From assembly GCA_029941115.1 (NCBI GenBank), contig JAPYRK010000006.1, positions 6,821 to 70,820 of the forward strand: a DNA stretch of 64,000 nucleotides, written 5' to 3'. Numbering within the stretch: the first letter of the stretch is position 1; every line of letters begins with the position of its first letter. The position numbers and the translations under genes were made by a program. Source of the stretch: Dehalococcoidia bacterium (lineage in GTDB: Bacteria > Chloroflexota > Dehalococcoidia > UBA2979). Shown piece by piece: positions 17,928 through 63,787 of this stretch. The notes beneath the pieces were generated by a model. It was not told the origin of the DNA. It saw only the letters and a program-made list of their open reading frames with translations, and did not search any database.

Positions 17928-17940
17928 AATTAGTTAACCC

Positions 17941-20200: not shown

Positions 20201-23200
20201 GTGATTATGAAACTTGGTAAATTACTTGTGGCTAATCGAGGTGAAATAGCAGTTCGAATTATTCGAGCTGCTTCTGAGCTGGATATAGAGACTTGCTCGA
20301 TATATTCTGAGGCAGACATTAATTCAATCCATTGGCGAAGAGCCGATGAGGCATTCTTACTTCAGGGCTCGGGTGCTCAGCCGTATTTAGACATAGAGCA
20401 AATCGTACAGGTGGCTACTGATGCTGGATGTGCCGCGGTCCATCCGGGTTATGGCTTTCTTAGCGAAAATCCTGAGTTTGCTATCAAGTGTGAATCCGCT
20501 GGGATAAAGTTTGTCGGTCCAGAATCTTCCTCACTAAACGTTTTTGGTGACAAAGTATTGGCGAGACAAGTCGCGATGCAGCACGGAATACCGGTTGTAC
20601 CTGGACTTGACCATCCGGTAACGGTCACTGAGGCAATGGAATTTCTGGGATCTTTGGAAGAGGGTCAGTCAGCGATTCTCAAGGCTGTGCATGGCGGAGG
20701 TGGGCGTGGAGTTCGTGTACTCGAAAAGGATAGTGATGTTGGACAGGCGTACCGAGAGGCACAGACTGAGGCTGAATCGTCCTTTGGGAGTGCAGATCTC
20801 TACATCGAAAGATACCTACCCAATGTTCGCCATATTGAAGTGCAAATAGCCGGTGACTCAACTGGCGCGATCTCACATTTTTGGGAGCGCGATTGTTCCA
20901 TACAGAGGCGTCACCAGAAAATTATTGAGATAGCTCCTGCCCCGTTTTTGGATGAAGCCGTTAGGGATGCATTACTGGCGGCGGCGGTAACAATCGGAGA
21001 GGCCGCAAATTACGAAAATCTAGGCACCGTGGAGTTTTTGGTATCGGCAAGCCAGACAGAATCGAGCGAATTCTTTTTCATTGAGGTAAATCCAAGACTG
21101 CAGGTAGAACACACAGTAACTGAAGAAGTCACAGGTATTGATTTGGTACAAACACAATTGCGAATTGCTTCAGGTGAGAGTCTTGCATCACTTGGTCTTT
21201 TACAGGGATCGATTGCGCCAGCCCAAGGTTACGCGATTCAGGCAAGAGTAAATATGGAGAAAATCAAGGAAGACGCCACCGTGGTTCCGTCAACGGGAAC
21301 TCTATCAGTGTTCGCTCCGCCATCAGGTCTTGGTGTACGGACGGACACTTTTGGTTACAGCGGTTACCAGACTAGTACAAGTTTCGATTCACTTCTGGCA
21401 AAAGTAATTGGGTATTCCAGTTCTCGTGAATTTGCTCCTGCGGTCGCACGGGTTGAAAATGCGCTGGCCGAGTTTGATGTCAAAGGTGTGGATACCAATA
21501 TATCTTTCTTGAGAGCCATTCTTGGTCATCAATCGTTTCGGAATGGAGAAGTGTACACACGTTTTGTTGATTCAGAGGCCGGTGGACTCAACCAGCTTGC
21601 CAAAGAAATAGGCGACAGTGTTTTATTGGGCTTTGCCGAACCGAACGAACAGGCTGGGGCGACGATCGATTCTAACGACCCTTTGGCGGTACTAGATTAT
21701 GGAATACAAGCGATTCGGAGTGCGGAGACACAGTCTTCTCCAGAGCTAGGTGGACAATCCGATGCCCCTGGATCAGTAAGGTCACCTCTGCAGGGTACTG
21801 TCGTATCTATTGAAGTCTCGGTTGGCGAGAAAGTACAAGCCGGACAACTACTAGCGGTAATGGAATCAATGAAAATGCAGCATGAGATTAAAGCTCATTT
21901 AAGTGGTTCGGTCAGTGTTATTAGTGTTAGTTCAGGCGACACTCTTTGGGAGAATCACACGCTGATGATCATCGAAGCACATGAAGTCTCTGGGTCTGTT
22001 ATTGAAGGTGACAATTCAGTCGATTTAGAGTTCATTCGTCCTGATCTCGAGGAAATTTTGGTACGCCGTGCCGCGACCCTGGATGAGAATCGAGAAGAGG
22101 CGGTGTCCAAGCGCCATTCTCGGAATCTGAGGACAGTTCAGGAGAATGTAGAGGATTTGTTCGATACAGGAACTTTTTTGGAGTACGGACCTCTAGTTCT
22201 AGCAAACCAGTTCTCGCGTCGTAGCTTGAATGAATTAATTGAAAAGACACCAAGAGACGGGATGATTACCGGTATGGGGAGTGTGAACGGAGATCTGTTT
22301 TCTGGTCCTGAAAGTATGGTCGCAACAATTGCATATGATTATATGGTTTTGGCCGGTACGCAAGGGAACAGAAATCATCAAAAAACCGATCGAATGATTG
22401 AAGTAGCACGAAACTCACAACTACCCTTGGTATTGTTTGCAGAAGGCGGTGGCGGTCGGCCCGGAGACGATGGGCTTCATGCAGCTGGAGGTAGCTCAAC
22501 GTTTGCTTCTTTTTCAACCCTAAGTGGCCTGGTCCCTATGGTCGGAATTACGGCAGGCCGTTGTTTTGCCGGCAATGCTTCATTACTTGCTTGTTGTGAC
22601 GTAATTATCGCCACGGAAGGATCAAATATTGGGATGGGAGGACCGGCAATGATCGAAGGTGGTGGCCTAGGTATTTTTGCTCCTGAAGATATTGGTCCGA
22701 TGGAAATACAGATACCCAACGGCGTCGTAGATATATCGGTTAAAGACGAAGCAGAAGCCGTTCAAGTTACTAAGAAATACCTGTCTTACTTCCAGGGGTC
22801 AGTGGATACATGGGAGGCTCCTGATCAGCGTGAAATGAGGCAGATTGTCCCTGAAAATAGATTGCGAGTCTATAACGTTCGAGACGTGATTAATACGCTG
22901 GCTGACGTTGACTCCATACTTGAGATTCGGCCTGAGTTTGGAATTGGAATTGTCACTGTATTGGTCCGTGTGGAGGGCAGGAGTTTGGGTGTTATTGCTA
23001 ACAATCCTGGTCATTTGGGCGGTGCTATTGACTCAGATGGTGCTGACAAAGCCGCTCGGTTTATGCAGCTTTGTGACGCGTTCGATCTGCCGTTGCTCAC
23101 TCTAGTTGACACCCCTGGCATCATGGTTGGCCCTGAGGTGGAAAAAACCGCTTTAGTGCGTCACGCTAATCGGCTATTTCTGCATGGCGCCAATATTGAA

Positions 23201-23584
23201 ACGACTTTCATGTCAATTATTTTACGAAAGGCATATGGACTGGGCGCAATAGCCATGACAGGCGGTAATTATCGCCAACCACAGTTCACCGTGTCTTGGC
23301 CGACGGGGGAGTTTGGCGGAATGGGCCTGGAGGGTTCAGTGAAGCTTGGGTATCGTGATGAACTTGCGTCCATTGCGGACCCAGAAGAGCGATTAGAAAA
23401 ATATGAAGCGATGGTGGCTCGGGCATATGAGCGTGGTAAAGCTTTGAATACGGGAATGAACTTCGGTTTTGATGACACGATTGATCCCGCGGAATCGAGG
23501 GCGTGGATTGCGGGAACGCTTAAGGCAGCAAAATTACCTCCAATAAGATCTGGAAAAAAACGTCCGTTTATCGATGCCTGGTAG
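20201..23584 (+). CDS. single-chain multidomain acyl-CoA carboxylase (biotin carboxylase - BCCP - carboxyltransferase fusion, LCC-type)
   Basis: An N-terminal ATP-grasp biotin carboxylase (GYGFLSEN, EVNPRLQVEH), a biotinyl domain with the SMKM biotinylation motif (about residue 545), and a C-terminal AccD/PccB-like carboxyltransferase, all in one 1127 aa ORF. Confidence 0.85.
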   Translation: MIMKLGKLLVANRGEIAVRIIRAASELDIETCSIYSEADINSIHWRRADEAFLLQGSGAQPYLDIEQIVQVATDAGCAAVHPGYGFLSENPEFAIKCESAGIKFVGPESSSLNVFGDKVLARQVAMQHGIPVVPGLDHPVTVTEAMEFLGSLEEGQSAILKAVHGGGGRGVRVLEKDSDVGQAYREAQTEAESSFGSADLYIERYLPNVRHIEVQIAGDSTGAISHFWERDCSIQRRHQKIIEIAPAPFLDEAVRDALLAAAVTIGEAANYENLGTVEFLVSASQTESSEFFFIEVNPRLQVEHTVTEEVTGIDLVQTQLRIASGESLASLGLLQGSIAPAQGYAIQARVNMEKIKEDATVVPSTGTLSVFAPPSGLGVRTDTFGYSGYQTSTSFDSLLAKVIGYSSSREFAPAVARVENALAEFDVKGVDTNISFLRAILGHQSFRNGEVYTRFVDSEAGGLNQLAKEIGDSVLLGFAEPNEQAGATIDSNDPLAVLDYGIQAIRSAETQSSPELGGQSDAPGSVRSPLQGTVVSIEVSVGEKVQAGQLLAVMESMKMQHEIKAHLSGSVSVISVSSGDTLWENHTLMIIEAHEVSGSVIEGDNSVDLEFIRPDLEEILVRRAATLDENREEAVSKRHSRNLRTVQENVEDLFDTGTFLEYGPLVLANQFSRRSLNELIEKTPRDGMITGMGSVNGDLFSGPESMVATIAYDYMVLAGTQGNRNHQKTDRMIEVARNSQLPLVLFAEGGGGRPGDDGLHAAGGSSTFASFSTLSGLVPMVGITAGRCFAGNASLLACCDVIIATEGSNIGMGGPAMIEGGGLGIFAPEDIGPMEIQIPNGVVDISVKDEAEAVQVTKKYLSYFQGSVDTWEAPDQREMRQIVPENRLRVYNVRDVINTLADVDSILEIRPEFGIGIVTVLVRVEGRSLGVIANNPGHLGGAIDSDGADKAARFMQLCDAFDLPLLTLVDTPGIMVGPEVEKTALVRHANRLFLHGANIETTFMSIILRKAYGLGAIAMTGGNYRQPQFTVSWPTGEFGGMGLEGSVKLGYRDELASIADPEERLEKYEAMVARAYERGKALNTGMNFGFDDTIDPAESRAWIAGTLKAAKLPPIRSGKKRPFIDAW

Positions 23585-28413: not shown

Positions 28414-29661
28414 TCAGATGATTCCATTACTTCGAAACGCTATTACTTTTCTTTCGTCATATCCTAATAGATCGATTAATATTTCATCATTATCAGCGCC
28501 GGTACTTGGTGTTGGGCCAGTTATTTCACCCTGTCCTTTTTCAAGTTTCCATATCACTCCTCGATAGAGCGAATCAAGAGAGAAATTGTTGTCGGTCACG
28601 GTGAGACTAGTTCGGTGCAGACTATTGAGATTCTCATCATTGACTAGATCCAGTGTCCCCATGACCGGGTATGCTGGAATTTTTGACTTTTGGAGAGTTT
28701 TTGTTAGTTGCATAGCTGTGTAATCCTTGGTCCATGATTCAATGGTCTCGTCTAATTCATCTTGATTATCGAGTCGACCCTGTAACGTCTTGAACTTAGG
28801 GTTTGTTATATCCTCTGATTTTTGCGCTGCCAGATCTTTAAACGTCTCCCATTCTTCTTGATTTCGAACTGAGATCGATATCCATTCATCGAGCCCTGAT
28901 GTTTTGTAGTAACCGTGTGGTGCTGTCGCTGGGTATCTATTGCCTTGCGGACCTGCAACTCGGCCGTTTAAAAAGTAATCCATCAATGGTTCAGCTATTC
29001 GTTGAATGCAGGCTTCTCCTTGGGCTATATCAATGTGTTGGCCTCGCCCGGTCGTGTCCCGAGATTCAAGCGCCGCAAGTATCGCAAAAAACGCATGACC
29101 TGCCGCGGTAGGATCCAAATCCGCTTGGTCTTCTTGAGGATGGTCAGAATCGTGGTACCCAAGGACACTCTTTATTCCATAGAGCGCTGCCAGGGAGGGA
29201 CCGTAGGTGACGAGATCTCTCCACGGGCCATCGGTTGCTCCTGTAGCTGAAAGCGAGGCCAATATTATCTTCGGATTAATTCTCGTAAGAACATCAAAAC
29301 CGAGACCCAACGAAGGCATTACTCGGGCTGAAAAGTTTTCGACTACTACGTCGCTGACTGCGATGAGTTTTTTATATATTTCTTTGCCATCTTCTGACTG
29401 TAGATCCAGACTTAAGCTTTTCTTACCTCGATCGAATGCGTGATATGCCATTGGGTCAGAGATATCGACTGCATCCCGAGTGGCTGTGCCGGCCATTCCT
29501 TTGCCTGCCATTGACACTCCTGATCCACCCGTGGGGGATTGTATTTTTATAACTTCCGCGCCCATATCTTTAAAACTCATTCCCAGAAGCGGTCCAGCCC
29601 AGACGTGGCCGTGATCTATTACTCGTATTCCGCTGAGCGGACCATTGGTTGTTGCAGTCAT
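28414..29661 (-). CDS. CoA-transferase family III (CaiB/BaiF)
   Basis: Family III N-terminus (GIRVIDHGHVWAGP); 415 aa. Its start overlaps the stop of the upstream paralogue as TAATG. Confidence 0.85.
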   Translation of the reverse strand: MTATTNGPLSGIRVIDHGHVWAGPLLGMSFKDMGAEVIKIQSPTGGSGVSMAGKGMAGTATRDAVDISDPMAYHAFDRGKKSLSLDLQSEDGKEIYKKLIAVSDVVVENFSARVMPSLGLGFDVLTRINPKIILASLSATGATDGPWRDLVTYGPSLAALYGIKSVLGYHDSDHPQEDQADLDPTAAGHAFFAILAALESRDTTGRGQHIDIAQGEACIQRIAEPLMDYFLNGRVAGPQGNRYPATAPHGYYKTSGLDEWISISVRNQEEWETFKDLAAQKSEDITNPKFKTLQGRLDNQDELDETIESWTKDYTAMQLTKTLQKSKIPAYPVMGTLDLVNDENLNSLHRTSLTVTDNNFSLDSLYRGVIWKLEKGQGEITGPTPSTGADNDEILIDLLGYDERKVIAFRSNGII

Positions 29662-30911
29662 TAGGTAATTCCTAGCTTTGTAAGATTGGATCTCTCAGAA
29701 GTCGTAAGTCCTAATCTAGTTTTGAAGAATTCCTCGTTATGTTCCCCAAGCTGTGGTGCAGGACGGTAAACGGCCCACGGTGTTTCTGAAAATAGATATG
29801 GTGCGCCAGGTATTTTATAACTGCCTACAACCGGATGTTCTATCTCATGCCAAAAGCCTCTGACAGCCAAATGTTCACTTTCAATTATTTCATTAACCTT
29901 GTTGACTGGTTGAAAAGGAATTCTATTTTCCGAGAACAACTTGAATAATTCTGATCGAGTCTTACCTTTCATCCAAGGATGCCAAAACGCATCTAATTCC
30001 TTATGCCACTCAAAAGACAACCATCTATCAGAGAGCCTAGGATCATCGGCCCAGTCTGGATTATCCATAAGATTGATAAATCGTTTCCATTGTTCATCTA
30101 CCATCGTTATTACCTCCACAAAGCCATCAGAGGCTGGAGTGACCTGCCACGGATAAAATCCACTTCGATGTGTACCGTCTCTTGAACCGAGTACCCCCTG
30201 GAAGACAAATCCTGGAACGCCTGAGCCTCCCAAATAACTGGCCATAACTTCTACTACAGATATCCACGCATGCAATCCTTGGTTAAGTTGTCTTTTCTTA
30301 CGCAGTGCTAATAGAGCCGCAATGGCGCCATGAATACCTCCCTGAAAATCAGCCGCACAGTAAGGCAGCCAAAGAGGAACTTTATCCGGACTTCCAATTT
30401 TCTTAGAGGCACCTGAAGCGGCTGTAGCCGTTAGTGCTGTACCAGCCCAGTCTCTATAGGGTGTGTCGTAACCAAATATTGTGATGGATGACATGACGAG
30501 CATGTCATTGTTCTCGGATAGCGATTCGTAACTCAAACGTTCATTCGTGAGCTCTTCCAAAGAGAGATTACTGATTACCAAATCTACATCTGCTGCAGCC
30601 GAAATTAATAGATCCTGCCCGACTTGAGTAGCCAAGTCAAGAGTTACACTCTTCTTGTTAGTATTGAGGAATAGGTGTAACCCACTCTTTTCTATATGTG
30701 GAATGTCTTTTGGAAAAGGGCCATGGCTACGGAGCGAATCACCGATTATAGGTTTTTCTATCTTGATAACTTCAGCGCCTAGATCAGCCAATAATTTTCC
30801 AGCGTAGGCCACAGAGATGAAGTCACCGATCTCGAGCACTCGCAAATTCTTTAGTGGTCCGTGTATGTCCATAACTAGATCCTGTGCCGGAATCATAGTG
30901 AACACTGTCAA
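29661..30911 (-). CDS. CoA-transferase family III (CaiB/BaiF)
   Basis: Family III architecture; 416 aa. Confidence 0.85.
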   Translation of the reverse strand: MTVFTMIPAQDLVMDIHGPLKNLRVLEIGDFISVAYAGKLLADLGAEVIKIEKPIIGDSLRSHGPFPKDIPHIEKSGLHLFLNTNKKSVTLDLATQVGQDLLISAAADVDLVISNLSLEELTNERLSYESLSENNDMLVMSSITIFGYDTPYRDWAGTALTATAASGASKKIGSPDKVPLWLPYCAADFQGGIHGAIAALLALRKKRQLNQGLHAWISVVEVMASYLGGSGVPGFVFQGVLGSRDGTHRSGFYPWQVTPASDGFVEVITMVDEQWKRFINLMDNPDWADDPRLSDRWLSFEWHKELDAFWHPWMKGKTRSELFKLFSENRIPFQPVNKVNEIIESEHLAVRGFWHEIEHPVVGSYKIPGAPYLFSETPWAVYRPAPQLGEHNEEFFKTRLGLTTSERSNLTKLGIT

Positions 30912-31030: not shown

Positions 31031-31495
31031 CTACTTCTTATTTCGCATTTCGGTGAATTTAATCATCTTGATTGCTTCGGAGACACTCATTCGACCGATT
31101 GGTCCTGATGCGTAGAGCGATCCTAGAATTTTGCCACTAGCATCTAGCAAAAATTCTGCGGGTTGGGAATATTCACCATGGTGATCTGCTCCCCACCAAA
31201 CACCGAGCGATTCAGCATGGCTTTTTTCCACGCTGTGAATCATGGTGAATGTCAGATTATTTTTAGTAACGACCCCGCCTACCTGGTCAGGTGTATCTAC
31301 GCTCGCAGCGTACACCGTCACCCCCAGCTGTTCGAGTTCTTTTTTTGCAGACTGCCATTCGGCCAACTGCCGATTACAGAACGGTCACCAGTGTCCACGA
31401 TAGAAAAGTATAGCCGCATATTTGGTGGGGATATCTCTAGGTAGCTCGATCTTGTCTTCGTCAAGTGTTTTAAAAACTAGCGAGGGGAAGGTCAT
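31031..31495 (-). CDS. thioredoxin-fold Prx/AhpC-TSA-like thiol peroxidase, selenoprotein candidate (UxxC; Sec codon TGA at 31385..31387)
   Basis: Reading through one in-frame TGA gives MTFPSLVFKTLDEDKIELPRDIPTKYAAILFYRGHW-U-PFCNRQLAEWQSAKKELEQLGV, a 154 aa product. The track reports only the 3' fragment, 31031..31366. Confidence 0.62.
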
Positions 31496-31528
31496 ATTTT
31501 GTTGAAGCATATTATTCAATGTTAGAGC

Positions 31529-35097: not shown

Positions 35098-35526
35098 CTA
35101 GGCAGGAACCGCCAGAAATACCGGAATAACACGTGAAGTTTTTTCTTGATACTCCTCATAGGGTGGGTATGCCGCTACCGCGATCTTCCAGAGCCGCTCT
35201 TTTTCCACTGGGTCAGTAACCTCGTGTACCGACATTAACTGTACTTTATCGATATCTCTGATTTCCACGTTTGTCTCAGATTTCAGGTTGTAGTACCAGA
35301 CAGGATGCTTGGGCGCCCCGCCCCATGAAGCTACCAAGACATAATTGTCACCGTCTACGACGCGCATTAATGGTGTTTTCCTGACCGCGCCCGTTTTGTT
35401 GCCTTTGTTAGTCACAATAATGCATGGCAAATCATACAAAGTAGTACCCTCTGCACCGTTGCTACTCTCATATAGTTCCACCTGGTTGGCAACCCAGTCA
35501 ATTGGGTTTGCAATGTACTCACTCAT
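35098..35526 (-). CDS. F420H2-dependent reductase family protein (deazaflavin-dependent nitroreductase/quinone reductase, DUF385/PF04075)
   Basis: KTPLMRVVDGDNYVLVASWGGAPKHPVWYYNL ... ERLWKIAVAAYPPYEEYQEKTSRVIPVFLAVP matches the Ddn-family core. Confidence 0.8.
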   Translation of the reverse strand: MSEYIANPIDWVANQVELYESSNGAEGTTLYDLPCIIVTNKGNKTGAVRKTPLMRVVDGDNYVLVASWGGAPKHPVWYYNLKSETNVEIRDIDKVQLMSVHEVTDPVEKERLWKIAVAAYPPYEEYQEKTSRVIPVFLAVPA

Positions 35527-35662: not shown

Positions 35663-36976
35663 TTACTCGAATGTATTGGCGGGCCTCTCTAAGCCGTAAT
35701 GGTCACGTAACGTCTTACCTCGGTACTCGGTTCTGAAGAGTCCTTTTTTTTGTAATAATGGAACGACCTCGTCGATAAAAATATCCAACATTTTAGGTAG
35801 CACAGGTGGCATGAGGTTAATTCCATCAGCCACGCCATCGGTGAACCAATCTTCAATAAGATCCGCGATATGTTCTGGTGTTCCTGAAACTACATAATGT
35901 CCGCGGGCGCCCGCTAACTTCGACAGTAACTGTCGCATTGTAGGCCTTTCATTACGAACTACTCCGAGGATCACTTCGGTGCGACTGCGCGCAGCTTCTA
36001 CAGTGGAGGGGTCCGGAAAGTCGTCTGGCGAAAGTGGAGTATCGAGTGGAAGGTGTGAGAAGTCTGTGCCACCGAATCTGGAAGCGAGACTTATTAGTCC
36101 CTCTTTGGGGTCAGCTAGGTTATTTAGATCATCCCTGAATAGTTGTGCTTCAGCATCAGTTGAGGCAATTACCGGGCTCAGACCCGGCAATATCAGACAT
36201 TGCTTTTCGTCGCGGCCTTCTGCTTTGACGAGTGATTTCAAATCGCCGTAAAATGCCTTCGCTGACGCCTTTTCCATATGGGCCGTGAATACGGCTTCTG
36301 CATGTTGAGCAGCGAATTTACGACCTGTGTCTGAGGATCCGGCTTGTACAAGCACTGGCCAACCCTGTGGTCCGCGAGGTACATTAAGTGGGCCGGCGAC
36401 GTTGTAAAAATTCCCTTCATGGCCGCCCTCGCGAACACTATTTTCCTTTAAATATTTTCCATTTTCTCGGTCATCAATAATTGCATCATCCGACCAGCTG
36501 TCCCACAAACTTCTAGTTACTGCCATAAATTCGTCAGCTCGTGCATACCGTTCAGCGTGGCTAATCTGACTTGCATAACCGTAATTTCGTGCTGCAGGTA
36601 CTGACCAGGAGGTGACGATGTTCCAGCCGATTCGACCGTTACTAATATGATCGAGTGACGCAAATTGTCTTGCTAGATTAAAGGGTTCTGTATAGGTGGT
36701 CGAAGCGGTGCCTATAAGCCCAATATTGTTAGTCGATACGGCGAGCGCGGCTAGAGATGTCAAAGGCTCTAAGCTGAGCGATGCGCCGCCGCCTCGAAAT
36801 GCAAGTTGATCAGCTAAGAAAATTGAGTCAAAAAAGCCTTCTTCCGCTCGCTGTGAAAGTCCTTGTAAGTAGCTGATGTCGGTTAAAGCAAGATCCGATG
36901 CATCTGGATGTCGCCACGAAGCTTCATGGTGGCCTCGGCTATTAATAAATAAATTCAGATGTAGTTCACGACTCAT
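35663..36976 (-). CDS. LLM-class FMNH2-dependent monooxygenase, NtaA/SnaA/DszA family
   Basis: The N-terminus HLNLFINSRGHHEASWRHP is the hallmark of the NtaA/DszA group; 437 aa. Confidence 0.9.
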   Translation of the reverse strand: MSRELHLNLFINSRGHHEASWRHPDASDLALTDISYLQGLSQRAEEGFFDSIFLADQLAFRGGGASLSLEPLTSLAALAVSTNNIGLIGTASTTYTEPFNLARQFASLDHISNGRIGWNIVTSWSVPAARNYGYASQISHAERYARADEFMAVTRSLWDSWSDDAIIDDRENGKYLKENSVREGGHEGNFYNVAGPLNVPRGPQGWPVLVQAGSSDTGRKFAAQHAEAVFTAHMEKASAKAFYGDLKSLVKAEGRDEKQCLILPGLSPVIASTDAEAQLFRDDLNNLADPKEGLISLASRFGGTDFSHLPLDTPLSPDDFPDPSTVEAARSRTEVILGVVRNERPTMRQLLSKLAGARGHYVVSGTPEHIADLIEDWFTDGVADGINLMPPVLPKMLDIFIDEVVPLLQKKGLFRTEYRGKTLRDHYGLERPANTFE

Positions 36977-37204: not shown

Positions 37205-38431
37205 CTATACCTTTCCATAGGGTTCAAGAACGGGTATCTGATCATCTGTAAGAGGGGCAAGAGGTACTTTCCTATCAAACGCTTCTTGGATGAACGGTGC
37301 GAGTTCCTCATTCTTGATTTGAAGTCGAGCGTCTTCTTCAGCATGAAATTCTGGCATCACTTCTTTTGCGAAAAGATTTAAGGAGTCACATATATCGGAA
37401 TGTTTATTTTTTCCTCCTTGTTGGATGAAAATTGATTGATCAACCCCAAGGTCCGCAAACGCACGGAGATTCGATCGTACTTGGTCTGGTGTGCCAATTG
37501 CGCCTCGACTCGCTGTGATGTTTCCTTTTTCGCCCCCACCGGTTAAGTCGGGCGCGACTATCCCACTCCGAACATCCATATAGTTATCCCAAATGTTTGT
37601 GCGGCCAGGTTGGTGTTTTCCCTGGACATAATAATGTCCGAGTGCGTATTGAAAGAAACGGAGTCCGTCAATTCCACGCTCTATAGCAACTTGTTCATCC
37701 TGATGAAGCGAAAAGCCCATCACGAAGGCAATATTTGGATTGACGGCATGGCCAATTGGAATACATTCATTCTTAAAGGTATCGTAATAATCATCTACCC
37801 ATGGTTTTGCCTCGTCCGCGTCGACAAAGCTAAAGGTCAAGGCGCCGATACCGTGCCGCGCGGCCATTTTTATGGTTTCACGGCTTGAGCAGGCAACCCA
37901 AAGAGGAGGATGAGGTTTTTGTAGAGGTTTTGGAACTACATTTCGTGTGGGCATTGAGAAGAATTCGCCGTTATAGCCAGGGTACGGGTCCATAACCATC
38001 ATATTGGTAACTTGTTCGACCGCTTCCTCCCACTGCGCGCGTTTGGACGTGGGATCTACGTTATAACCTTCCAACTCTGTCCGTGACGCAGATTCACCGG
38101 TACCAAATTCAACTCGCCCGTTTGAGAGAAGGTCTAGAGTAGAAATTCGCTCGGCAATTCGCGCCGGAGCATTGTAGCCGGGTGGCATCAGAGTTATACC
38201 GTGCCCCAGCCGAATTTGGGAGGTTCGCTGTGAAGCCGCACCGAGAAACACCTCAGGGGCAGAGGAGTGGGAATACTCTTCCAAGAAATGATGCTCCACT
38301 TCCCATGCGTAATCAATACCAAGTTTGTCAGCGAGCTCTACTTGATCGAGTGCTTCGTGGAGCAGTGTTGCTTCACCATTTTCTGTCCAAGGTCGTGGAT
38401 ATTGATGTTCATAAAATACACCGAATTTCAT
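37205..38431 (-). CDS. LLM-class flavin-dependent oxidoreductase
   Basis: 408 aa from MKFGVFYEH (ATG 38431, GAGGT RBS). The track's 32 aa N-extension has no RBS. Confidence 0.85.
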   Translation of the reverse strand: MKFGVFYEHQYPRPWTENGEATLLHEALDQVELADKLGIDYAWEVEHHFLEEYSHSSAPEVFLGAASQRTSQIRLGHGITLMPPGYNAPARIAERISTLDLLSNGRVEFGTGESASRTELEGYNVDPTSKRAQWEEAVEQVTNMMVMDPYPGYNGEFFSMPTRNVVPKPLQKPHPPLWVACSSRETIKMAARHGIGALTFSFVDADEAKPWVDDYYDTFKNECIPIGHAVNPNIAFVMGFSLHQDEQVAIERGIDGLRFFQYALGHYYVQGKHQPGRTNIWDNYMDVRSGIVAPDLTGGGEKGNITASRGAIGTPDQVRSNLRAFADLGVDQSIFIQQGGKNKHSDICDSLNLFAKEVMPEFHAEEDARLQIKNEELAPFIQEAFDRKVPLAPLTDDQIPVLEPYGKV

Positions 38432-38586
38432 AGCTACCTCTTGCCCGCAAAAAAATGCAACTTCCAATTTGTGCACAGCATAGCACTGGGCTCCTAAAGT
38501 AGAGACATGAAGTCTCATAAAAATCACCGTCTACCTTCTCAAGTAAGGTGAATTGACTATGTTGCTTGATAGTGAGGGAGATTAGT

Positions 38587-44879: not shown

Positions 44880-45330
44880 CGCGGTGCTTCCGCTCGCTTT
44901 CGCAAGCTGACATCCTTGTTAGTCTCTGTCGGGGACAGGTGTTGCCATCTTTGCATCCTGTTGTTGATGGAGTCCTCCCTCACAAAATATCTGCCGCAGA
45001 AAATACTTTATTTAATCAGGTCAGCTCGTACATTCTTGCTTAAAAGTTGCATAAGCACAGCAACCTCAATCAAATCGGTCAAGAAAAAGTACCAATGAAG
45101 CCTATACCTTCCGCCGAGACTGCTGCGAAGATCTCTAATACTAATAGTAAGGAATCAAGATTTCGTGCCCTGATCATTCTTTTGCATATTTCGTAACCTG
45201 AATGAAACTATTCCAGAGGTTCGTTCCAATTCTTCTTGGATTAACCAGCCGGTCTGCATCGACTTTAGATACTCGGCTCTAAGTCGTGCTGCTTTCTCTG
45301 GCGACAATTTCTTTTTCGGGTCGTTCGTAG

Positions 45331-46143
45331 TTATCTCTCGACCAGGGTATCCGCCTGCCGGGACCATTCGCCGAAGGAACCGTCATAGTTCCTGGCCTTG
45401 TCATAACCCATGAGTTTCAGAATCATTAAAGCGTGCGCCGCACGCATGCCACCCTGTCAATATGTAAGAACTTCACTTTCCGGAGTGATCCCACGTTCCT
45501 CAAGAATTTTTTGGATTTCATCAGCAGGCTTCATAGTTTGTGACTCAGGTTCGACGACGGAGTTCCACTCCAAATGTATTGCTCCAGGGATACGGCCGAC
45601 ACGATCAGGCGCATTCCCCCTTGAAATTTCTCCTGTAAACTCTCCCTCCAGTCGCGTATCCCAAAAAATGACTTGGGAATTATTTACGCCATCCTTTGCG
45701 TGCCCCAAGTCACAATAGAGATCAGGGATTATTTGCTTTATAAACTGTGTCGATGGGAATTCAGATTGTCTGGTTTCGAGATCGCGTTTTTCGACTGTCC
45801 ATTTCTTAATTCCGCCATTCAAAAAGTGCACCTTCATGAGGCCATAATACGAAAGTAACCACCAAGCGCGCGCTGCCGGAGGTCCAAGATCGTCATAACA
45901 AATAACCCTACTGTCATTACCAATTCCATTCTTAGATAATGTCTGAGCGAAATCATCGGGATCAACTAACTCCAAGTTAAAAGGAATGTCGAGTAAGTTG
46001 ATTGCCCCTGGGATGTGACCCTTGTCGTATTCTTCTTGTGAGCGAACATCGATTATTCGTAAATCCGTGTCCGAGATATGATCCGCAAGCCACGCACTTT
46101 CAACTAGTATCGTTTGATTGGGATAGGGTTTCGTGTCAGGCAT
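45331..46143 (-). CDS. two-domain rhodanese (thiosulfate/3-mercaptopyruvate sulfurtransferase-like), selenoprotein candidate with Sec (TGA 45457..45459) at the catalytic Cys position
   Basis: The track ORF stops at TGA. Read-through gives ...EVLTY-U-QGGMRAAHALMILKLMGYDKARNYDGSFGEWSRQADTLVER, which is exactly the CRxGxR active-site loop followed by the conserved YDGSW.EW tail. GAGGAG RBS at the start. Confidence 0.68.
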
Positions 46144-46370
46144 TAATTCTCCTCGTTTCTATTAGTGCTAGTTTAATCTACGTACGGTAGACAATAAGGG
46201 TAAATATTCGAGCGAGAGCGGCCGATAGGTGTTAGCTCAGAACTAATAATTTCGGTCAGGGCGCGCAGAGAGACTTTCGTAAGTAATTTTGCCATGGTTA
46301 TGATCAAGCCTATGCGTTGTTGCCACCCGTGACGTCATAAAAATCCTGAACATGGGCCCAACTCGTGAAA

Positions 46371-53060: not shown

Positions 53061-53897
53061 ATGAAATTCGGCGTAAGTATGTTTATGACTGACTATGCTT
53101 TATATCCTGATATTTTAGCGAAAGAAGCAGAAGCGAGAGGATTTGAATCGCTCTGGTTCCCTGAGCACACTCATATTCCAGCTAGCAGGAAATCTGCATA
53201 TCCAGGCGGTGGAGAACTTCCCCAGCAGTATTATCACTCGCTCGATCCTTTTGTGGCACTCACGGCGGCTGCGACTGTGACAGAAAAAATAAAACTAGGT
53301 ACCGGAATTGCGCTTGTAATCGAACGTGATCCAATCACGTTAGCCAAGGAAGTTGCAAGTATTGACTATGTGTCCAATGGTAGGTTCTTGTTTGGAATTG
53401 GTGGCGGTTGGAACAGGGAAGAAATGGAAAATCATGGAACTGACCCGAGCAGACGGTGGAAGCTACTTCGTGAACGAATCGAAGCTATGGTAGAAATTTG
53501 GACAAAGGATGAGGCTGAATATCATGGTGAATTCGTTGATTTTGATCCTATATGGTCCTGGCCTAAACCAGTGCAGAAACCCTATCCACCGATTATGCTT
53601 GGCAACGCCGGTCCAGGCGCAATTTCACGCGCTGTGAGATTTGCTGATGAGTGGATGCCGATAGGGGCTCGATTAGATCTCGCTGAAAGAATTAGTGAGT
53701 TAAATGACAAGGCAGAAGCAGCCGGTCGTGGGCCTATTCCGGTCACTAACTGGGGCACGGCCCCAAATCGTGAAGCGATAGACGAGCTTGCGGATATTGG
53801 TGTGGGACGAGCGATTTTTGGTCTGCCTTCAGCTAAAGAAGATGAAGTAATCCCATTGCTTGACAGATATGCCGAGCTAATCGCACCCTTGATTTAG
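53061..53897 (+). CDS. LLM-class F420/flavin-dependent oxidoreductase
   Basis: MKFGVSMF start, GTGIALV, and the GRFLFGIGGGW LLM signature; 278 aa. Confidence 0.85.
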   Translation: MKFGVSMFMTDYALYPDILAKEAEARGFESLWFPEHTHIPASRKSAYPGGGELPQQYYHSLDPFVALTAAATVTEKIKLGTGIALVIERDPITLAKEVASIDYVSNGRFLFGIGGGWNREEMENHGTDPSRRWKLLRERIEAMVEIWTKDEAEYHGEFVDFDPIWSWPKPVQKPYPPIMLGNAGPGAISRAVRFADEWMPIGARLDLAERISELNDKAEAAGRGPIPVTNWGTAPNREAIDELADIGVGRAIFGLPSAKEDEVIPLLDRYAELIAPLI

Positions 53898-58926: not shown

Positions 58927-60141
58927 CTAGTGCTCTGTGGTAAAAATACCATCCGCGGCCAGCTCCGTTATTTCAGTTTCGGAAAAACCGGCATCAATTA
59001 AAACTTCGTAATTATGTTCTCCGACTAGGGGTGCTCTTCTACGTGGTGCCAAGTCAGCATCCTGAATGCTAAACGGAGTTGAAATTATTCGATATTCTTT
59101 TCCTGTGACGTCTTCAAGAGTTGTAATTGCTTCCTGTTCCAAGATCACTGGATCGGTTGCAATTTCAGAGAGCGATGCAGCCGGTGCCCAGATACATTCA
59201 TTCTTGTCGAGGAGGGGCGCCCACTCGGATAGTGTTTTTGACTTGAACTCTGCCTGAAGTTCCGCAACTATTTCAGTACCGTGTTCGAGCATTCCTGCAT
59301 TTGTGGTAAATCTTGAATCTGTTGACCAGTCTGAGCGTCCAAGCACTGCACATAGACGGGGCCAATGTCGAGGCACGTTATGCATTGTGAGCATTAGCCA
59401 CCTTTTATCTTTTGTTTCGTACGCACTTCGTATTAACAGCCCGTGGGTTTGTCGATTGAATTGACTCGGGATGCTGTTAGGGAGATTCATTGCCAGTTGC
59501 ATATCGGTAGCAATCGTCCACAAACCAGTTCGAAGAAGAGACACTTCGGCTCTCTGTGGTAATCCAGTTTGTTCTTTGAGTCGTAGTGCGGCAAGCGTTG
59601 CAGCAAGTAGATTCACACCTGTCGGATGGTCTCCCTGTCCAGGACGACTCTGCACTGCGGGTGCGCCGACTTCACCCATAAGTCCCATAACGCCTGATCG
59701 TGCCCAAAAGGCGGTGCTGTCGAAGCCAGGACGTTCGGAGTCTGTGCCACTGCCACTATACCCAACTAAATGGCCGTACACCAAAGTCGGCTGAATTTGT
59801 TTTAAGGTTTCGAAGTCTAGTCGATATTTTTCAGCTCGTTTCGATGTGAGGTTAGTAATAAAAATGTCAGCGCTCGCGATTAGTCGATGTAACACATCTT
59901 GTGCCGCCGTTTTTGTGAGGTCCAATGCGAGAGATTGCTTGCCGCGATTATCGACCTCAAAGACATAGTTTACTGGCGCGGATACATGGAGGTGAGCTCG
60001 ATTTCCACGAAATGTGTCACCATCAGGAGGCTCTATCTTAATAACCGTTGCGCCCATATCTGCCATAAGTGCAGCGGCAGAAGGAGCAGCCAAAAAACTT
60101 GCAACTTCAATCACACGAATACCGTCTAAAGGGCCAACCAT
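58927..60141 (-). CDS. CoA-transferase family III (CaiB/BaiF)
   Basis: LDGIRVIEVASFLAAPSAAALMADMGATVIKIEPP N-terminus; 404 aa. Confidence 0.85.
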   Translation of the reverse strand: MVGPLDGIRVIEVASFLAAPSAAALMADMGATVIKIEPPDGDTFRGNRAHLHVSAPVNYVFEVDNRGKQSLALDLTKTAAQDVLHRLIASADIFITNLTSKRAEKYRLDFETLKQIQPTLVYGHLVGYSGSGTDSERPGFDSTAFWARSGVMGLMGEVGAPAVQSRPGQGDHPTGVNLLAATLAALRLKEQTGLPQRAEVSLLRTGLWTIATDMQLAMNLPNSIPSQFNRQTHGLLIRSAYETKDKRWLMLTMHNVPRHWPRLCAVLGRSDWSTDSRFTTNAGMLEHGTEIVAELQAEFKSKTLSEWAPLLDKNECIWAPAASLSEIATDPVILEQEAITTLEDVTGKEYRIISTPFSIQDADLAPRRRAPLVGEHNYEVLIDAGFSETEITELAADGIFTTEH

Positions 60142-60216
60142 ATTGCTCTTTGTACCATAGTCTTACTCTTGAGGGTAAGAATTTATTTGCGAGAAAGAAT
60201 TGCTAGAGGAATTATT

Positions 60217-61407
60217 ATGTCTGGACCACTGGATGGCATGCGCGTTCTCGAATTTACACAGCTGATAATGGGACCGCAGTGTTGTCAGTTACTGCGGGAT
60301 CTTGGTTGCGATGTGATCAAGATTGAACATCCGGACGCACCGGATTCTTCAAGACGAATTCCGGCGTCTGAGTCTGAATCTGCCCCACCGGTATACCATG
60401 CTAACAATCGTGGTAAGCGAAGCCTTACAGTCAACTTCGGCAATCCCGAAGGATTGGAACTAGTACAGGCTCTCATAGCTGAGAGTGACGTCTTGGTGAC
60501 GACGCTGCGACCACAAGCCCTAGATCGAGCAGGGCTGGGATATGAAGCCTGTCGCACCATTAATCCACGTTTGATATATGCAGTAGGTACTACCTACGGC
60601 CCGCAAGGTCCAGACAGTAATCGTCCGGGAAATGACCTAATGGCTCAAGCCGCAGGAGGTTTAGCCTGGAATACCGGAACACCGGAATCAGCTCAGGGGG
60701 CCGGTGCATTGGTGGCGGACACCATGGGCGGTATGACTTTGTTTGGGGCAATTGTTACGGCTCTTTATGCTCGTGAAAAGTCAGGTGTTGGTCAGATGGT
60801 CGAAACCTCTCTTCTGGGTGGGCAAATTTGGGCGCAATCTTCAGAGTTGATGGCGCACGTAATGGCCGGAAACCAACACGATCGATCTCAGCGTACATAT
60901 CCGTGGTTGAGTTCAATATCACCTATAAGTATTTATCAAGCCAAGGATGGTTACGTAGCGTTATCAGGCGTCCCTAAAAGATGGGAGAAGTTTTGGAATG
61001 CTTTGGGTCGAGCTGATCTTGCGGCTAATGAAGTATTGCAGGCGGGCCTGGAGAGATTACGTCAAAATGATTTGATAACTAAGGCAATTTCTGAGATTTT
61101 TGTGAATATGAGTGCGCGTGATATTCACATCATTTTGGAAGAAGTTGATGCGGTTTGGGCACCAGTCAATGATTATGATCACGTGGTCACTAACCCGCAG
61201 GTGCTGGAGAGCGGTTATTTACGCCAGGCGAGTCACCCTGAATACGGTGACATGGTAACTATGGGCACACCGGTGCGCTATAGTGACGGAATTGACGAGC
61301 CGGCTGATCGGGCACCCGAGCTCGGCGAGAATACTGAAGAAATCTTGCTAGAGATTGGCTATAGCTGGGAGCAGATTGAGCTCCTAAAGAAAGAAGGAGC
61401 TCTTTAG
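60217..61407 (+). CDS. CoA-transferase family III (CaiB/BaiF)
   Basis: MSGPLDGMRVLEF start with a GAGGA RBS. The track start at 60169 adds 16 aa with no RBS. Confidence 0.85.
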   Translation: MSGPLDGMRVLEFTQLIMGPQCCQLLRDLGCDVIKIEHPDAPDSSRRIPASESESAPPVYHANNRGKRSLTVNFGNPEGLELVQALIAESDVLVTTLRPQALDRAGLGYEACRTINPRLIYAVGTTYGPQGPDSNRPGNDLMAQAAGGLAWNTGTPESAQGAGALVADTMGGMTLFGAIVTALYAREKSGVGQMVETSLLGGQIWAQSSELMAHVMAGNQHDRSQRTYPWLSSISPISIYQAKDGYVALSGVPKRWEKFWNALGRADLAANEVLQAGLERLRQNDLITKAISEIFVNMSARDIHIILEEVDAVWAPVNDYDHVVTNPQVLESGYLRQASHPEYGDMVTMGTPVRYSDGIDEPADRAPELGENTEEILLEIGYSWEQIELLKKEGAL

Positions 61408-62393: not shown

Positions 62394-62596
62394 CGTTAGT
62401 CCTTAATGTTTGTACTCGTTTGATAATGGTTGGACTGTACCATATACACATTAGGCGGACTGATTAACTGAGCCTACTTCGGCATTACGCTTGATATGGC
62501 AGCACTTCAAAGTTGGGTTAACTTGCATAACTTCAACACGGTTTTACAATATAAGTCCGTATAAAAGTAGTGAAGAACGATTTATTAAGGAAACTC

Positions 62597-63787
62597 ATGG
62601 CTGAAGAGCATCAACGTCTTTTGGCAGGCCTTCGAATAATTGATGCTGGTCAAGTATTGGCCGGGCCATTTGTGTCTACGTTATTAGCAGATATGGGCGC
62701 AGAGGTTATTCGTGTAGAACTACCTGCACTCCGGCATGATACGGCGGCTCAGCAGAATTCAACGAGAGCTGGACTGCAGCGTAACAAAAAGTCAGTTTCT
62801 CTAGACTTGAGAAAACCTGAGGGCGCTGAATTGTTTAAGAAATTGGTCGCTAGTGCTGATGCTGTGGTTGAAAATTTCTCTCCAGGAACAATGGAGCGCT
62901 GGGGTATAGGGGAGGACGAGCTTGCAAAGGTGAATTCGCGACTAATTTTCGTACGAATTTCTGGGTTTGGTCAGACAGGCCCGTATCGTGACCGGACGTC
63001 TTATGACAGGATTGGTCAAGCGATAGGGGGGATGATTTATGTAACCGGTGAGGCAGATCAACCTCCAGTACATCCAGGATACATGATGGGTGATTTGGCT
63101 ACGGGCACATATGGCGCGCTTGCTATTTTAGGGGCCGTATATCATCGAGACCACGAAAATTGCCAGGAAACACAGATTGTTGATTTGTCATTATACGAAT
63201 CTATCCTGAGTTATTCAGGACCAATGGCGGCTGAATATAGTAGATCAGGCATTGTTCGGGAGCGAGCAGGTAACGTAAGATCCTGGTCTATTCCCGGGGA
63301 TCAATTTTTGACCAAGGATGGAAAGTGGGTGTTGATTCTCGCTCTTAATCCACAAATATTTCAAAGACTTTGCGATGCGATGAGTATCCCAGATTTACCA
63401 CAGGATCCAAAATTTTCGAATCACGCCAATCGATTTGCCAACGAAGTTGAACTCCATTCAATGATCCGAGAGTGGGTAAAAGATTTCGATTCAGTAGATT
63501 TATATAGTGTTCTAGATGAGTATCGAGTGCCGTATGGCCCGGTCTATAGTATTGCCGATATATTCGCCGACCCGCATATAGCTGCGCGGAAAAATTTGGT
63601 ACAGGTAGACGATCCATTTGTTGGTCCCGTAACTGTACCCGCGCCATATCCGAATCTGTCTCATGCCGAGGGGAGAATATATAATCCTGCTCCACGAATA
63701 GGTGAGCACAATGATGAGATTTACAAGGAACTTTTAGGTCTCACTGAAACTGAGATAGATGAGCTTACGGACGTAGGTGCTATTTAG
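62597..63787 (+). CDS. CoA-transferase family III (CaiB/BaiF)
   Basis: LAGLRIIDAGQVLAGPFVSTLLADMGAEVIRVE N-terminus. AAGGAA RBS before the ATG at 62597. Confidence 0.85.
   Translation: MAEEHQRLLAGLRIIDAGQVLAGPFVSTLLADMGAEVIRVELPALRHDTAAQQNSTRAGLQRNKKSVSLDLRKPEGAELFKKLVASADAVVENFSPGTMERWGIGEDELAKVNSRLIFVRISGFGQTGPYRDRTSYDRIGQAIGGMIYVTGEADQPPVHPGYMMGDLATGTYGALAILGAVYHRDHENCQETQIVDLSLYESILSYSGPMAAEYSRSGIVRERAGNVRSWSIPGDQFLTKDGKWVLILALNPQIFQRLCDAMSIPDLPQDPKFSNHANRFANEVELHSMIREWVKDFDSVDLYSVLDEYRVPYGPVYSIADIFADPHIAARKNLVQVDDPFVGPVTVPAPYPNLSHAEGRIYNPAPRIGEHNDEIYKELLGLTETEIDELTDVGAI

What the first reader, a model, noticed from the sequence alone, without database searches (positions are those of the whole stretch)
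45331..46143. Rhodanese with in-frame UGA exactly at the catalytic cysteine: candidate selenocysteine sulfurtransferase plus SECIS-like hairpin
The track ORF 45457..46143 ends at a TGA. Continuing in the same frame gives ...TY-U-QGGMRAAHALMILKLMGYDKARNYDGSFGEWS... and then a normal TAA stop at 45331. The position of U matches the Cys of the CRxGxR active-site loop of rhodaneses, and the downstream YDGSxxEW tail is the conserved end of the catalytic domain. That rules out reading the ORF end as a genuine stop. A 6 bp GC hairpin (GCGUGC-GGC-GCACGC, + strand 45431..45445) begins 11 nt after the UGA, which is the position and loop-G content expected of a bacterial SECIS. Rhodanese-like selenoproteins are a described but rare family.
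Basis: partly seen in the sequence, partly recalled or inferred. Interest (0 to 1): 0.8.

Follow-up and report, generated by a model that had tools for sequence, protein, structure and literature searches.

The report
Selenocysteine rhodanese gene in a SAR202 bacterium
This is a real but mis-annotated gene for a sulfur-transfer enzyme whose catalytic cysteine is replaced by selenocysteine, read from a UGA "stop" with the help of a small RNA hairpin. The protein family was already described from ocean metagenomes, so this is a new member, not a new kind.

Summary
The minus-strand gene 46143..45331 is a two-domain rhodanese (PF00581, E=6e-42). It has an in-frame TGA at 45459..45457, then 41 more sense codons, then TAA.

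- **Catalytic position.** The UGA aligns with the catalytic Cys230 of A. vinelandii RhdA and Cys237 of E. coli SseA.
- **Conservation of the codon.** The same column is TGA in 15 of 15 distinct relatives, in four sequence groups down to about 40% identity. The true terminators vary (TAG, TGA, TAA). More distant homologues have TGC or TGT.
- **Translation past the UGA.** The codons after the UGA are under strong purifying selection (pN/pS 0.06-0.11).
- **RNA signal.** Among 57 degenerate, amino-acid-invariant codon columns, only four never vary at synonymous sites. Its closing pair switches G-C to C-G in one group. The hairpin meets all four published bacterial SECIS criteria.
- **Second case.** A Prx-like UxxC gene with a conserved UGA and its own hairpin lies at 31510..31031.

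No selA, selB, selD or tRNA-Sec lies in the window. That remains untested genome-wide. The lineage is SAR202/Dehalococcoidia. Sec rhodanese-related sulfurtransferases were reported in 2005 and 2008, so this is a new member of a known kind.

The parts
45331..46143 (-). Full coding sequence of a two-domain rhodanese-type sulfurtransferase, 270 residues, with selenocysteine at residue 229. Public gene calls truncate it to 228 aa.
   Evidence: Translation. Pfam PF00581 in two stretches, E=5.8e-42. Alignment over residues 7-269 to solved rhodaneses 1uar, 1e0c and 1urh. Truncated database entries P0001-P0005 and P0010.
46149..46154 (-). Shine-Dalgarno-like GAGGAG, 5 nt before the ATG at 46143..46141.
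   Evidence: Read directly from the sequence. Inference only.
45457..45459 (-). In-frame UGA read as selenocysteine (U229), the catalytic residue that opens the active-site loop U-Q-G-G-M-R-A.
   Evidence: Aligns with Cys230 of RhdA (1e0c) and Cys237 of SseA (1urh). TGA in 15/15 distinct relatives against TGC/TGT in more distant homologues.
45431..45445 (-). SECIS hairpin GCGUGC-GGC-GCACGC. It has a 6-bp stem and a GGC loop, and 17 nt lie between the UGA and the loop. It is encoded by the codons (M)RAAH(A).
   Evidence: RNAalifold keeps only this helix. Pairs are 100% formed, with one compensatory G-C to C-G pair. The 13-nt core CGUGCGGCGCACG is invariant in four sequence groups. It is the only run of synonymous-site invariance in the gene. 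Energy is -8.1 kcal/mol alone and -9.3 in context.
45334..45456 (-). The 41 codons after the UGA. They encode the rest of the active-site loop and the conserved end of the catalytic domain (…NYDGSFGEWS…).
   Evidence: Amino-acid identity is 32-35 of 36 to relatives that are about 60% identical overall, with near-saturated synonymous change and pN/pS 0.06-0.11. This stretch aligns to the structural core of PDB rhodaneses.
45331..45333 (-). True terminator, TAA.
   Evidence: The terminator varies among relatives (TAG/TGA/TAA).
31031..31510 (-). Supporting feature: a second candidate selenoprotein gene. It is a Prx-like AhpC/TSA thiol:disulfide oxidoreductase with the motif U-P-F-C. The UGA is at 31387..31385. 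The hairpin UCGGC-AGUUG-GCCGA is at 31373..31359, with 16 nt between the UGA and the loop.
   Evidence: Found by a systematic scan for in-frame TGA splits. The read-through covers AhpC-TSA profile positions 5-121 of 124, E=3e-19, against 46-121 for the truncated ORF. TGA is conserved in L040, L041 and L042 at 50-90% identity, with Cys in P0153 and P0154. The hairpin is conserved, with U-A changing to G-C at its base.

Best explanation
The gene encodes a 270-residue two-domain rhodanese-type sulfurtransferase whose catalytic nucleophile is selenocysteine. During translation the UGA at 45459..45457 is not read as a stop. A 15-nt hairpin sits 11 nt downstream and lies within the codons for the active-site loop and the following helix. 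It is inferred to recruit SelB·GTP·Sec-tRNA(Sec) to the ribosome, which inserts Sec, and translation continues to the TAA at 45333..45331.

The enzyme would then work like a Cys rhodanese by double displacement. The selenolate attacks a sulfane-sulfur donor and forms an enzyme Se-S(H) intermediate in place of a Cys persulfide. It then passes the sulfur to an acceptor. The lower pKa and better leaving-group character of Se are the presumed advantage.

**Shown here:** the position of the UGA, its conservation, translation-level selection downstream, and RNA-level selection on the hairpin.

**Inferred:** SelB dependence, actual Se incorporation, substrate and physiological role.
For: 1. U229 aligns to the catalytic Cys230 of RhdA and Cys237 of SseA, and to Cys in homologues P0006-P0009 and L029-L035.
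2. The TGA is conserved in four sequence groups (about 86-100%, 60%, 40% and 42% identity). It is TGA in 15/15 distinct genes, while the true stops vary.
3. The downstream 36 codons have pN/pS 0.06-0.11 at pS 0.6-0.9.
4. Of 57 degenerate, invariant-residue codon columns, only CGT GCG GCG CAC, which is the hairpin, is nucleotide-invariant. Cys homologue L030 encodes the same RAAH as CGT GCA GCA CAC, so the protein does not force these bases.
5. The closing pair changes G-C to C-G by compensatory substitution. In L043 the stem is extended to 7 bp.
6. All four bSECIS consensus criteria quoted in PMC13188914 are met. The loop is 3 nt starting GG, inside the C-GGC-G pattern. The stem is 6 bp. The spacing is 17 nt. 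The energy is -8.1 or -9.3 kcal/mol.
7. TGA is otherwise an ordinary stop in the window (13 of 60 ORFs). Only two in-frame TGA splits exist. The other is a Prx-like UxxC gene with its own conserved UGA and hairpin.
8. An identical gene occurs on at least 15 independent contigs.
9. The lineage is SAR202/Dehalococcoidia. Dehalococcoidia MAGs with 46-49 selenoprotein genes are catalogued in BSepDB (PMC13326102).
Against: - No selA, selB, selD or tRNA-Sec is in the 64-kb window or in 29 related loci. The rest of the genome could not be searched.
- The hairpin alone is not thermodynamically distinguishable from shuffled sequence.
- Five of the six stem pairs never vary, so direct covariation rests on a single pair.
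- There are no proteomic or Se-labelling data.
- The substrate is unknown. The protein falls below NCBIfam's cut-off for 3-mercaptopyruvate sulfurtransferase (124.6 against 250 bits).
Confidence: 0.9

Rival explanations
1. The gene is a pseudogene, or the TGA is a genuine stop. The product would be a 228-residue protein lacking the catalytic loop, and the downstream frame would be a decaying remnant.
For: Every public gene call stops at the TGA. No Sec machinery is seen in the window.
Against: The downstream codons are under strong purifying selection. They stay open for 36-45 codons in all 15 distinct relatives. The stop is never TAA or TAG, while the true terminators vary. The truncation would remove the catalytic residue and part of the fold.
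Confidence: 0.03
2. The UGA is decoded by something other than the Sec pathway. Options are near-cognate read-through (Trp or Cys), or a reassigned genetic code such as table 4 or 25.
For: Some pipelines translated the equivalent TGA of the Prx-like gene as W (P0147, P0151). Sec machinery is unverified.
Against: TGA terminates 13 of 60 ORFs in the window, and only two in-frame TGAs occur. Both fall on redox or catalytic Cys columns, and each is followed by a conserved hairpin at SECIS spacing. Trp or Gly in place of the nucleophile would give a dead enzyme. Such an enzyme would hardly be conserved to 40% identity.
Confidence: 0.04
3. The gene is split. The 228-aa N-terminal product and a separately initiated peptide of about 38 aa (from the Met in QGGMRA) would be made as two chains.
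For: Gene callers annotate a 37-39-aa ORF right after the TGA in L006, L008, L009, L011 and L013.
Against: That Met is Ile in group C and Gly in L043, so the start is not conserved. Neither chain would contain the catalytic residue. This reading does not explain the invariant TGA or the RNA constraint.
Confidence: 0.02
4. The TGA is a sequencing or assembly error for TGC or TGT.
For: None beyond the single-base distance between the codons.
Against: An identical TGA is present in at least 15 independently assembled contigs of the same gene, and in all diverged relatives from JGI, ENA, Logan, Tara and NCBI.
Confidence: 0.01

Closest known systems
Sec-containing 'rhodanese-related sulfurtransferase' selenoprotein family. 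Sources: Zhang, Fomenko & Gladyshev 2005, Sargasso Sea, COG2897 (PMC1088965); GOS 2008, cd01449 (PMC2398784); listed as rhodanese-like forms 2 and 4, motif UxxG, in the 2026 review (PMC13188914).
   Same: - Marine bacterial origin.
- Rhodanese/COG2897-type two-domain architecture.
- Sec in place of the catalytic Cys, with the UxxG motif (U-Q-G-G here).
- A small downstream hairpin with G in the apical loop.
- Very many Cys homologues and very few Sec forms.
   Different: I could not retrieve the reference sequences (AACY01016424, MBM9537886.1, MCY3690685.1). Identity of clade is therefore inferred from the description, not aligned. The assignment to SAR202/Dehalococcoidia and the 13-nt invariant SECIS core are not mentioned in the papers I could search. 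No paper holds both 'SAR202' and 'selenoprotein'.
Cys-type two-domain rhodaneses with solved structures: A. vinelandii RhdA (1e0c), T. thermophilus rhodanese (1uar), E. coli SseA (1urh).
   Same: Full-length alignment over residues 7-269, E=6e-36 to 4e-32. The architecture is an inactive N-domain plus a catalytic C-domain. The nucleophile column and the six-residue active-site loop match.
   Different: The nucleophile is Sec, not Cys. The loop sequence UQGGMR differs from CQTHHR (RhdA), CRIAER (1uar) and CGSGVT (SseA). The protein falls below the NCBIfam equivalog cut-off for SseA, so substrate preference cannot be transferred.
E. coli fdhF-type bacterial SECIS and the bSECIS consensus model.
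   Same: It lies immediately downstream of the UGA, inside the coding sequence. [quoted passage not shown]
   Different: It is minimal, a 6-bp perfect stem with a 3-nt loop and no bulged U. No conserved lower stem exists: the CAGGGU/AUUCUG stem in the single-sequence centroid is not retained by RNAalifold.
NCBIfam NF041203 rhodanese_LYCAU (rhodanese-related (seleno)protein, form 3, CxU).
   Same: It is a rhodanese-domain selenoprotein.
   Different: It is not the same family: 20.3 bits against a cut-off of 115, matching only residues 15-42. The motif is also different.

Membership tests
Two-domain rhodanese / thiosulfate-3-mercaptopyruvate sulfurtransferase superfamily (PF00581, COG2897) | Two tandem rhodanese homology domains | tested here: met
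   PF00581 in two stretches, E=5.8e-42. End-to-end alignment to 1uar, 1e0c and 1urh.
Two-domain rhodanese / thiosulfate-3-mercaptopyruvate sulfurtransferase superfamily (PF00581, COG2897) | Catalytic nucleophile at the first position of a six-residue active-site loop in the C-terminal domain | tested here: met
   The UGA codon (entered as C) aligns with Cys230 of RhdA and Cys237 of SseA. The loop is U-Q-G-G-M-R. The residue is Sec, not Cys.
Two-domain rhodanese / thiosulfate-3-mercaptopyruvate sulfurtransferase superfamily (PF00581, COG2897) | Sulfurtransferase activity | not testable with these tools
   Needs an enzyme assay.
E. coli SseA-type 3-mercaptopyruvate sulfurtransferase (NCBIfam NF008557 equivalog) | Score above the curated equivalog cut-off | tested here: not met
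   124.6 bits against a cut-off of 250. Related, but not an SseA orthologue.
Bacterial selenoprotein gene | In-frame UGA aligned with Cys in homologues | tested here: met
Bacterial selenoprotein gene | UGA conserved in orthologues, with a conserved and selected downstream coding sequence | tested here: met
   TGA in 15/15. pN/pS 0.06-0.11.
Bacterial selenoprotein gene | bSECIS: 3-9 nt loop, 4-16 bp stem, G in the first two loop positions, 16-37 nt from UGA to loop, MFE at or below -7.5 kcal/mol (PMC13188914) | tested here: met
   Loop GGC, 6 bp, 17 nt, -8.1/-9.3 kcal/mol. Synonymous-site invariance and one compensatory pair add support.
Bacterial selenoprotein gene | selA, selB, selD and tRNA-Sec in the same genome | not testable with these tools
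   Absent from the 64-kb window and from 29 related loci. Indirect support comes from a second Sec-type gene in the window and from selenoprotein-rich Dehalococcoidia MAGs in BSepDB.
Bacterial selenoprotein gene | Selenium actually incorporated at the UGA | not testable with these tools
   Needs 75Se labelling or mass spectrometry.
Described Sec 'rhodanese-related sulfurtransferase' family (Sargasso/GOS; review forms 2/4, UxxG) | COG2897/cd01449-type protein with a UxxG motif at the catalytic site | tested here: met
   The motif U-Q-G-G is read. Architecture. Family description.
Described Sec 'rhodanese-related sulfurtransferase' family (Sargasso/GOS; review forms 2/4, UxxG) | Sequence similarity to the published reference members (AACY01016424, MBM9537886.1, MCY3690685.1) | not tested
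   The reference sequences could not be fetched with the tools available.
NCBIfam NF041203 rhodanese_LYCAU selenoprotein (form 3) | Score above the cut-off; CxU motif | tested here: not met
   20.3 bits against 115. The motif is absent.

The most novel reading that the evidence does not exclude
The dark-ocean SAR202 lineage may depend on selenium for part of its sulfur metabolism. A Sec-rhodanese clade has been kept for a long time with an invariant minimal SECIS welded into the active-site-loop codons, and it sits alongside other selenoproteins such as the Prx-like one in this window. If so, selenium availability would constrain thiosulfate or organosulfur processing by one of the most abundant deep-sea bacterial groups. 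A variant reading is that the enzyme handles selenium itself, as a perselenide carrier, and not sulfur. No paper in the searched library connects SAR202 with selenoproteins.
Probability: 0.15. Interest if true: 0.55.

Novelty: new member of a known kind. Interest (0 to 1): 0.35.

Why it matters
- **Annotation.** The gene is truncated to 228 aa in every public call I saw, or split into two ORFs. The same error affects a Prx-like gene 14 kb away, where some pipelines even translate the UGA as Trp.
- **Biology.** It places two selenoprotein genes in a SAR202/Dehalococcoidia genome. This lineage is discussed for deep-ocean sulfur and recalcitrant-carbon cycling, but I found no published link to selenium. 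It points to a testable Se dependence of a sulfurtransferase.
- **Method.** The complete loss of synonymous variation confined to four codons is a clean example of an RNA signal overlapping an active-site coding region.

None of this changes what is known about the kind of system.

Tried and rejected
- **Single-sequence folding of 45395..45465.** z=0.2 and the MFE did not even contain the hairpin. This test is uninformative for a 15-nt element, so I replaced it with comparative tests.
- **Lower stem CAGGGU/AUUCUG from the centroid fold.** It is not kept by RNAalifold and not conserved in L011 or L016. Rejected as part of the element.
- **Rfam gathering scan of the window.** Only one tRNA was found.
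- **ARAGORN on the window and 29 loci.** No tRNA-Sec.
- **Pfam annotation of the whole window, looking for selA, selB and selD.** None found.
- **Promoter and terminator scan around the gene.** Counts were at shuffle level.
- **DNA for the Cys homologue P0006.** Unavailable.
- **Literature search for SAR202 with selenoprotein or selenocysteine.** Nothing relevant.
- **Global UGA reassignment.** Considered and rejected on stop-codon usage and the rarity of in-frame TGAs.
- **NCBIfam.** No dedicated selenoprotein model matched.

Full report
**Observation**

On the minus strand an ATG at 46143..46141, preceded by GAGGAG, opens a frame that meets TGA at 45459..45457. The frame then runs 41 more codons (QGGMRAAHALMILKLMGYDKARNYDGSFGEWSRQADTLVER) to TAA at 45333..45331. 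With C entered for the UGA, the 270-residue product is a two-domain rhodanese (PF00581, two stretches, E=5.8e-42).

**Position of the UGA**

Against solved structures the protein aligns end to end (residues 7-269) with T. thermophilus rhodanese 1uar, A. vinelandii RhdA 1e0c and E. coli SseA 1urh. Counting along the printed alignments puts the UGA column on Cys230 of RhdA and Cys237 of SseA. From established knowledge of these enzymes, those are the catalytic persulfide-forming cysteines. Cys-containing database homologues read TYCQGGIRAAHA… in the same place (P0006 and P0007).

**Relatives**

The closest database proteins are all 224-233 aa, that is, cut at the same spot. I fetched DNA for relatives from independent sources: JGI, ENA, Logan, Tara and NCBI MAGs.

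- All members of four sequence groups carry TGA in that column. The groups are about 86-100%, about 60%, about 40% and about 42% identical to the window protein.
- In all of them the frame stays open for a further 36-45 codons.
- Among 15 distinct sequences the internal codon is TGA 15 times. The real terminator is TAG 8 times, TGA 4 times and TAA 3 times.
- More distant homologues have TGC or TGT (L029-L035).
- An identical gene is on at least 15 separately assembled contigs, so sequencing error is excluded.

**Is the downstream part translated?**

For the 36 ungapped codons after the UGA, comparison of the window with the ~60% group gives 32-34 of 36 identical residues. Synonymous sites are near saturation (pS 0.60-0.91), and pN/pS is 0.06-0.10. 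The closer relatives L014 and L017 give 0.11 and 0.07. That is the signature of a translated, functional segment, not of a remnant behind a stop.

**Is the hairpin a signal?**

A single-sequence fold is uninformative (z=0.2). The comparative signal is strong.

- Across 12 Sec-type genes there are 57 codon columns with an invariant, degenerate amino acid. Of these, 53 vary at synonymous sites. The 4 that never vary are the consecutive codons CGT GCG GCG CAC (R-A-A-H), which form the hairpin.
- A Cys homologue (L030) encodes the same RAAH as CGT GCA GCA CAC. The protein sequence therefore does not dictate those bases.
- RNAalifold retains exactly this 6-bp helix.
- All pair cells are formed. The closing pair is G-C in eight sequences and C-G in three, a two-sided change caused by M to I and A to G codon changes.
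- In L043 the stem gains a seventh pair.
- The limitation is that five of the six pairs never vary. Covariation proper rests on one pair, and the main argument is the localised synonymous-site freeze.

The 2026 review of prokaryotic selenoproteomes (PMC13188914) gives the bacterial SECIS consensus as four criteria:

| Criterion | Consensus | Here |
|---|---|---|
| Apical loop | 3-9 nt | GGC, within C-GGC-G (fits the N1-G-[G/U]-N-N2 pattern) |
| Upper stem | 4-16 bp | 6 bp |
| G in loop | within the first two positions | GG |
| UGA to loop | 16-37 nt | 17 nt |
| MFE | at or below -7.5 kcal/mol | -8.1 alone, -9.3 in context |

All criteria are met.

**Does this organism decode Sec?**

The window contains no tRNA-Sec and no selA, selB or selD. 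This comes from Pfam over all ORFs and from the precomputed annotation of the central 20 kb. The 29 related loci also hold no tRNA-Sec. Three indirect lines support Sec decoding.

1. TGA is a normal stop here (13 of 60 ORFs). A systematic scan finds only two credible in-frame TGA splits.
2. The second split is a Prx-like AhpC/TSA gene at 31510..31031.
   - Its UGA (31387..31385) sits in a U-P-F-C motif.
   - Read-through restores the full Pfam domain: profile positions 5-121, E=3e-19, against 46-121 for the truncated ORF.
   - Relatives at 50-90% identity keep the TGA (L040-L042), while others have Cys (P0153 and P0154).
   - A hairpin [U/G]CGGC-AGUU[G/A]-GCCG[A/C] sits with 16 nt between the UGA and the loop. 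G is the second loop base, and its basal pair changes in a compensatory way.
3. The lineage is SAR202/Dehalococcoidia. BSepDB lists Dehalococcoidia MAGs with 46-49 selenoprotein genes (PMC13326102).

**Mechanism**

What is shown is a UGA at the nucleophile position, selection for translation past it, and selection on an RNA hairpin at SECIS spacing. The rest is inferred. SelB·GTP·Sec-tRNA(Sec) would bind the hairpin and insert Sec. The selenolate would then take sulfane sulfur from a donor as an Se-S intermediate and pass it on, as Cys rhodaneses do with a persulfide.

The active-site loop UQGGMR differs from those of RhdA, 1uar and SseA. The protein scores below the SseA equivalog cut-off, so the substrate is unknown. 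No operon partner is conserved. The neighbours differ between the window, L011 and L013.

**Comparison with what is known**

Sec-containing rhodanese-related sulfurtransferases were reported from the Sargasso Sea (COG2897, 3 sequences, SECIS shown; PMC1088965). They were also reported from GOS (cd01449, 8 Sec against 3,367 Cys homologues; PMC2398784). The 2026 review lists them as forms 2 and 4 with motif UxxG. U-Q-G-G fits that motif. I could not align the published reference sequences. The NCBIfam LYCAU selenoprotein model (form 3) does not match.

The finding is therefore a new, mis-annotated member of a known selenoprotein family. The modestly new elements are the SAR202 assignment, for which no paper in the library links SAR202 with selenoproteins, the invariant 13-nt SECIS core, and the second selenoprotein gene nearby.

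**Verdict**

Confidence that this is a genuine Sec-encoding gene is 0.9. Novelty is a new member of a known kind, and interest is 0.35.

Noticed in passing
window 31031..31510 (-); UGA 31385..31387; hairpin 31359..31373: A second candidate selenoprotein: a Prx-like AhpC/TSA thiol:disulfide oxidoreductase with a U-P-F-C motif. The TGA is conserved in relatives L040-L042, and Cys occupies that position in P0153 and P0154. A SECIS-like hairpin sits with 16 nt between the UGA and its loop. Public calls give only a 111-aa fragment.
   Followed up: yes
P0147 (L041 373-837) and P0151 (L042 162-656): The database proteins show Trp where the DNA has TGA (GHW-W-PFC). The source pipelines apparently translated these short contigs with a UGA=Trp code. 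This is an annotation artefact that hides selenoproteins.
   Followed up: yes
L006 1726-1842, L008 2292-2408, L009 906-1022, L011 1231-1344, L013 2176-2295; window 45155..45367 (-): Short ORFs of 37-39 aa are called right after the rhodanese TGA. They are the C-terminal piece of the split gene, not separate genes. The 70-aa ORF that overlaps the gene's end (called in L004) looks spurious too.
   Followed up: partly
window 16566-19149, 28414-30911, 58927-61407, 62570-63787: Seven family III CoA-transferase (PF02515) paralogues occur in 64 kb, several in adjacent pairs. With them are enoyl-CoA hydratases, SDRs, ETF alpha/beta and a nitronate monooxygenase-like gene. This is a dense acyl-CoA catabolic neighbourhood.
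   Followed up: no
window 6790-7698, 35663-36976, 37205-38527, 53061-53897, 35098-35526: Four luciferase-like monooxygenase (PF00296) paralogues and an F420H2-dependent quinone reductase-like gene. This fits the SAR202 paralogue expansions and supports the taxonomic assignment.
   Followed up: no
window 20201-23584 (+): A single 1127-aa polypeptide fuses biotin carboxylase, a biotin-carrier domain and a carboxyltransferase. It is an all-in-one acyl-CoA carboxylase.
   Followed up: no
window 10853-14407 (+): A class II (B12-dependent) ribonucleotide reductase of 1184 aa. Its barrel domain matches in two stretches, and it has a C-terminal TSCPD domain. It may carry an insertion; I did not examine it.
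   Followed up: no
L011 262-333, L016 9728-9803, L024 2030-2105: In the ~60% identity group, a tRNA-Ala(TGC) gene lies about 200 bp upstream of the Sec-rhodanese on the opposite strand. This synteny is absent from the window.
   Followed up: no
L043 770-1633: The fourth-group Sec-rhodanese keeps the UGA and the hairpin. Its C-terminus departs from the family after …NFDAS (QRGPRNRTD*). That could be a frameshift in this short contig or real divergence.
   Followed up: no
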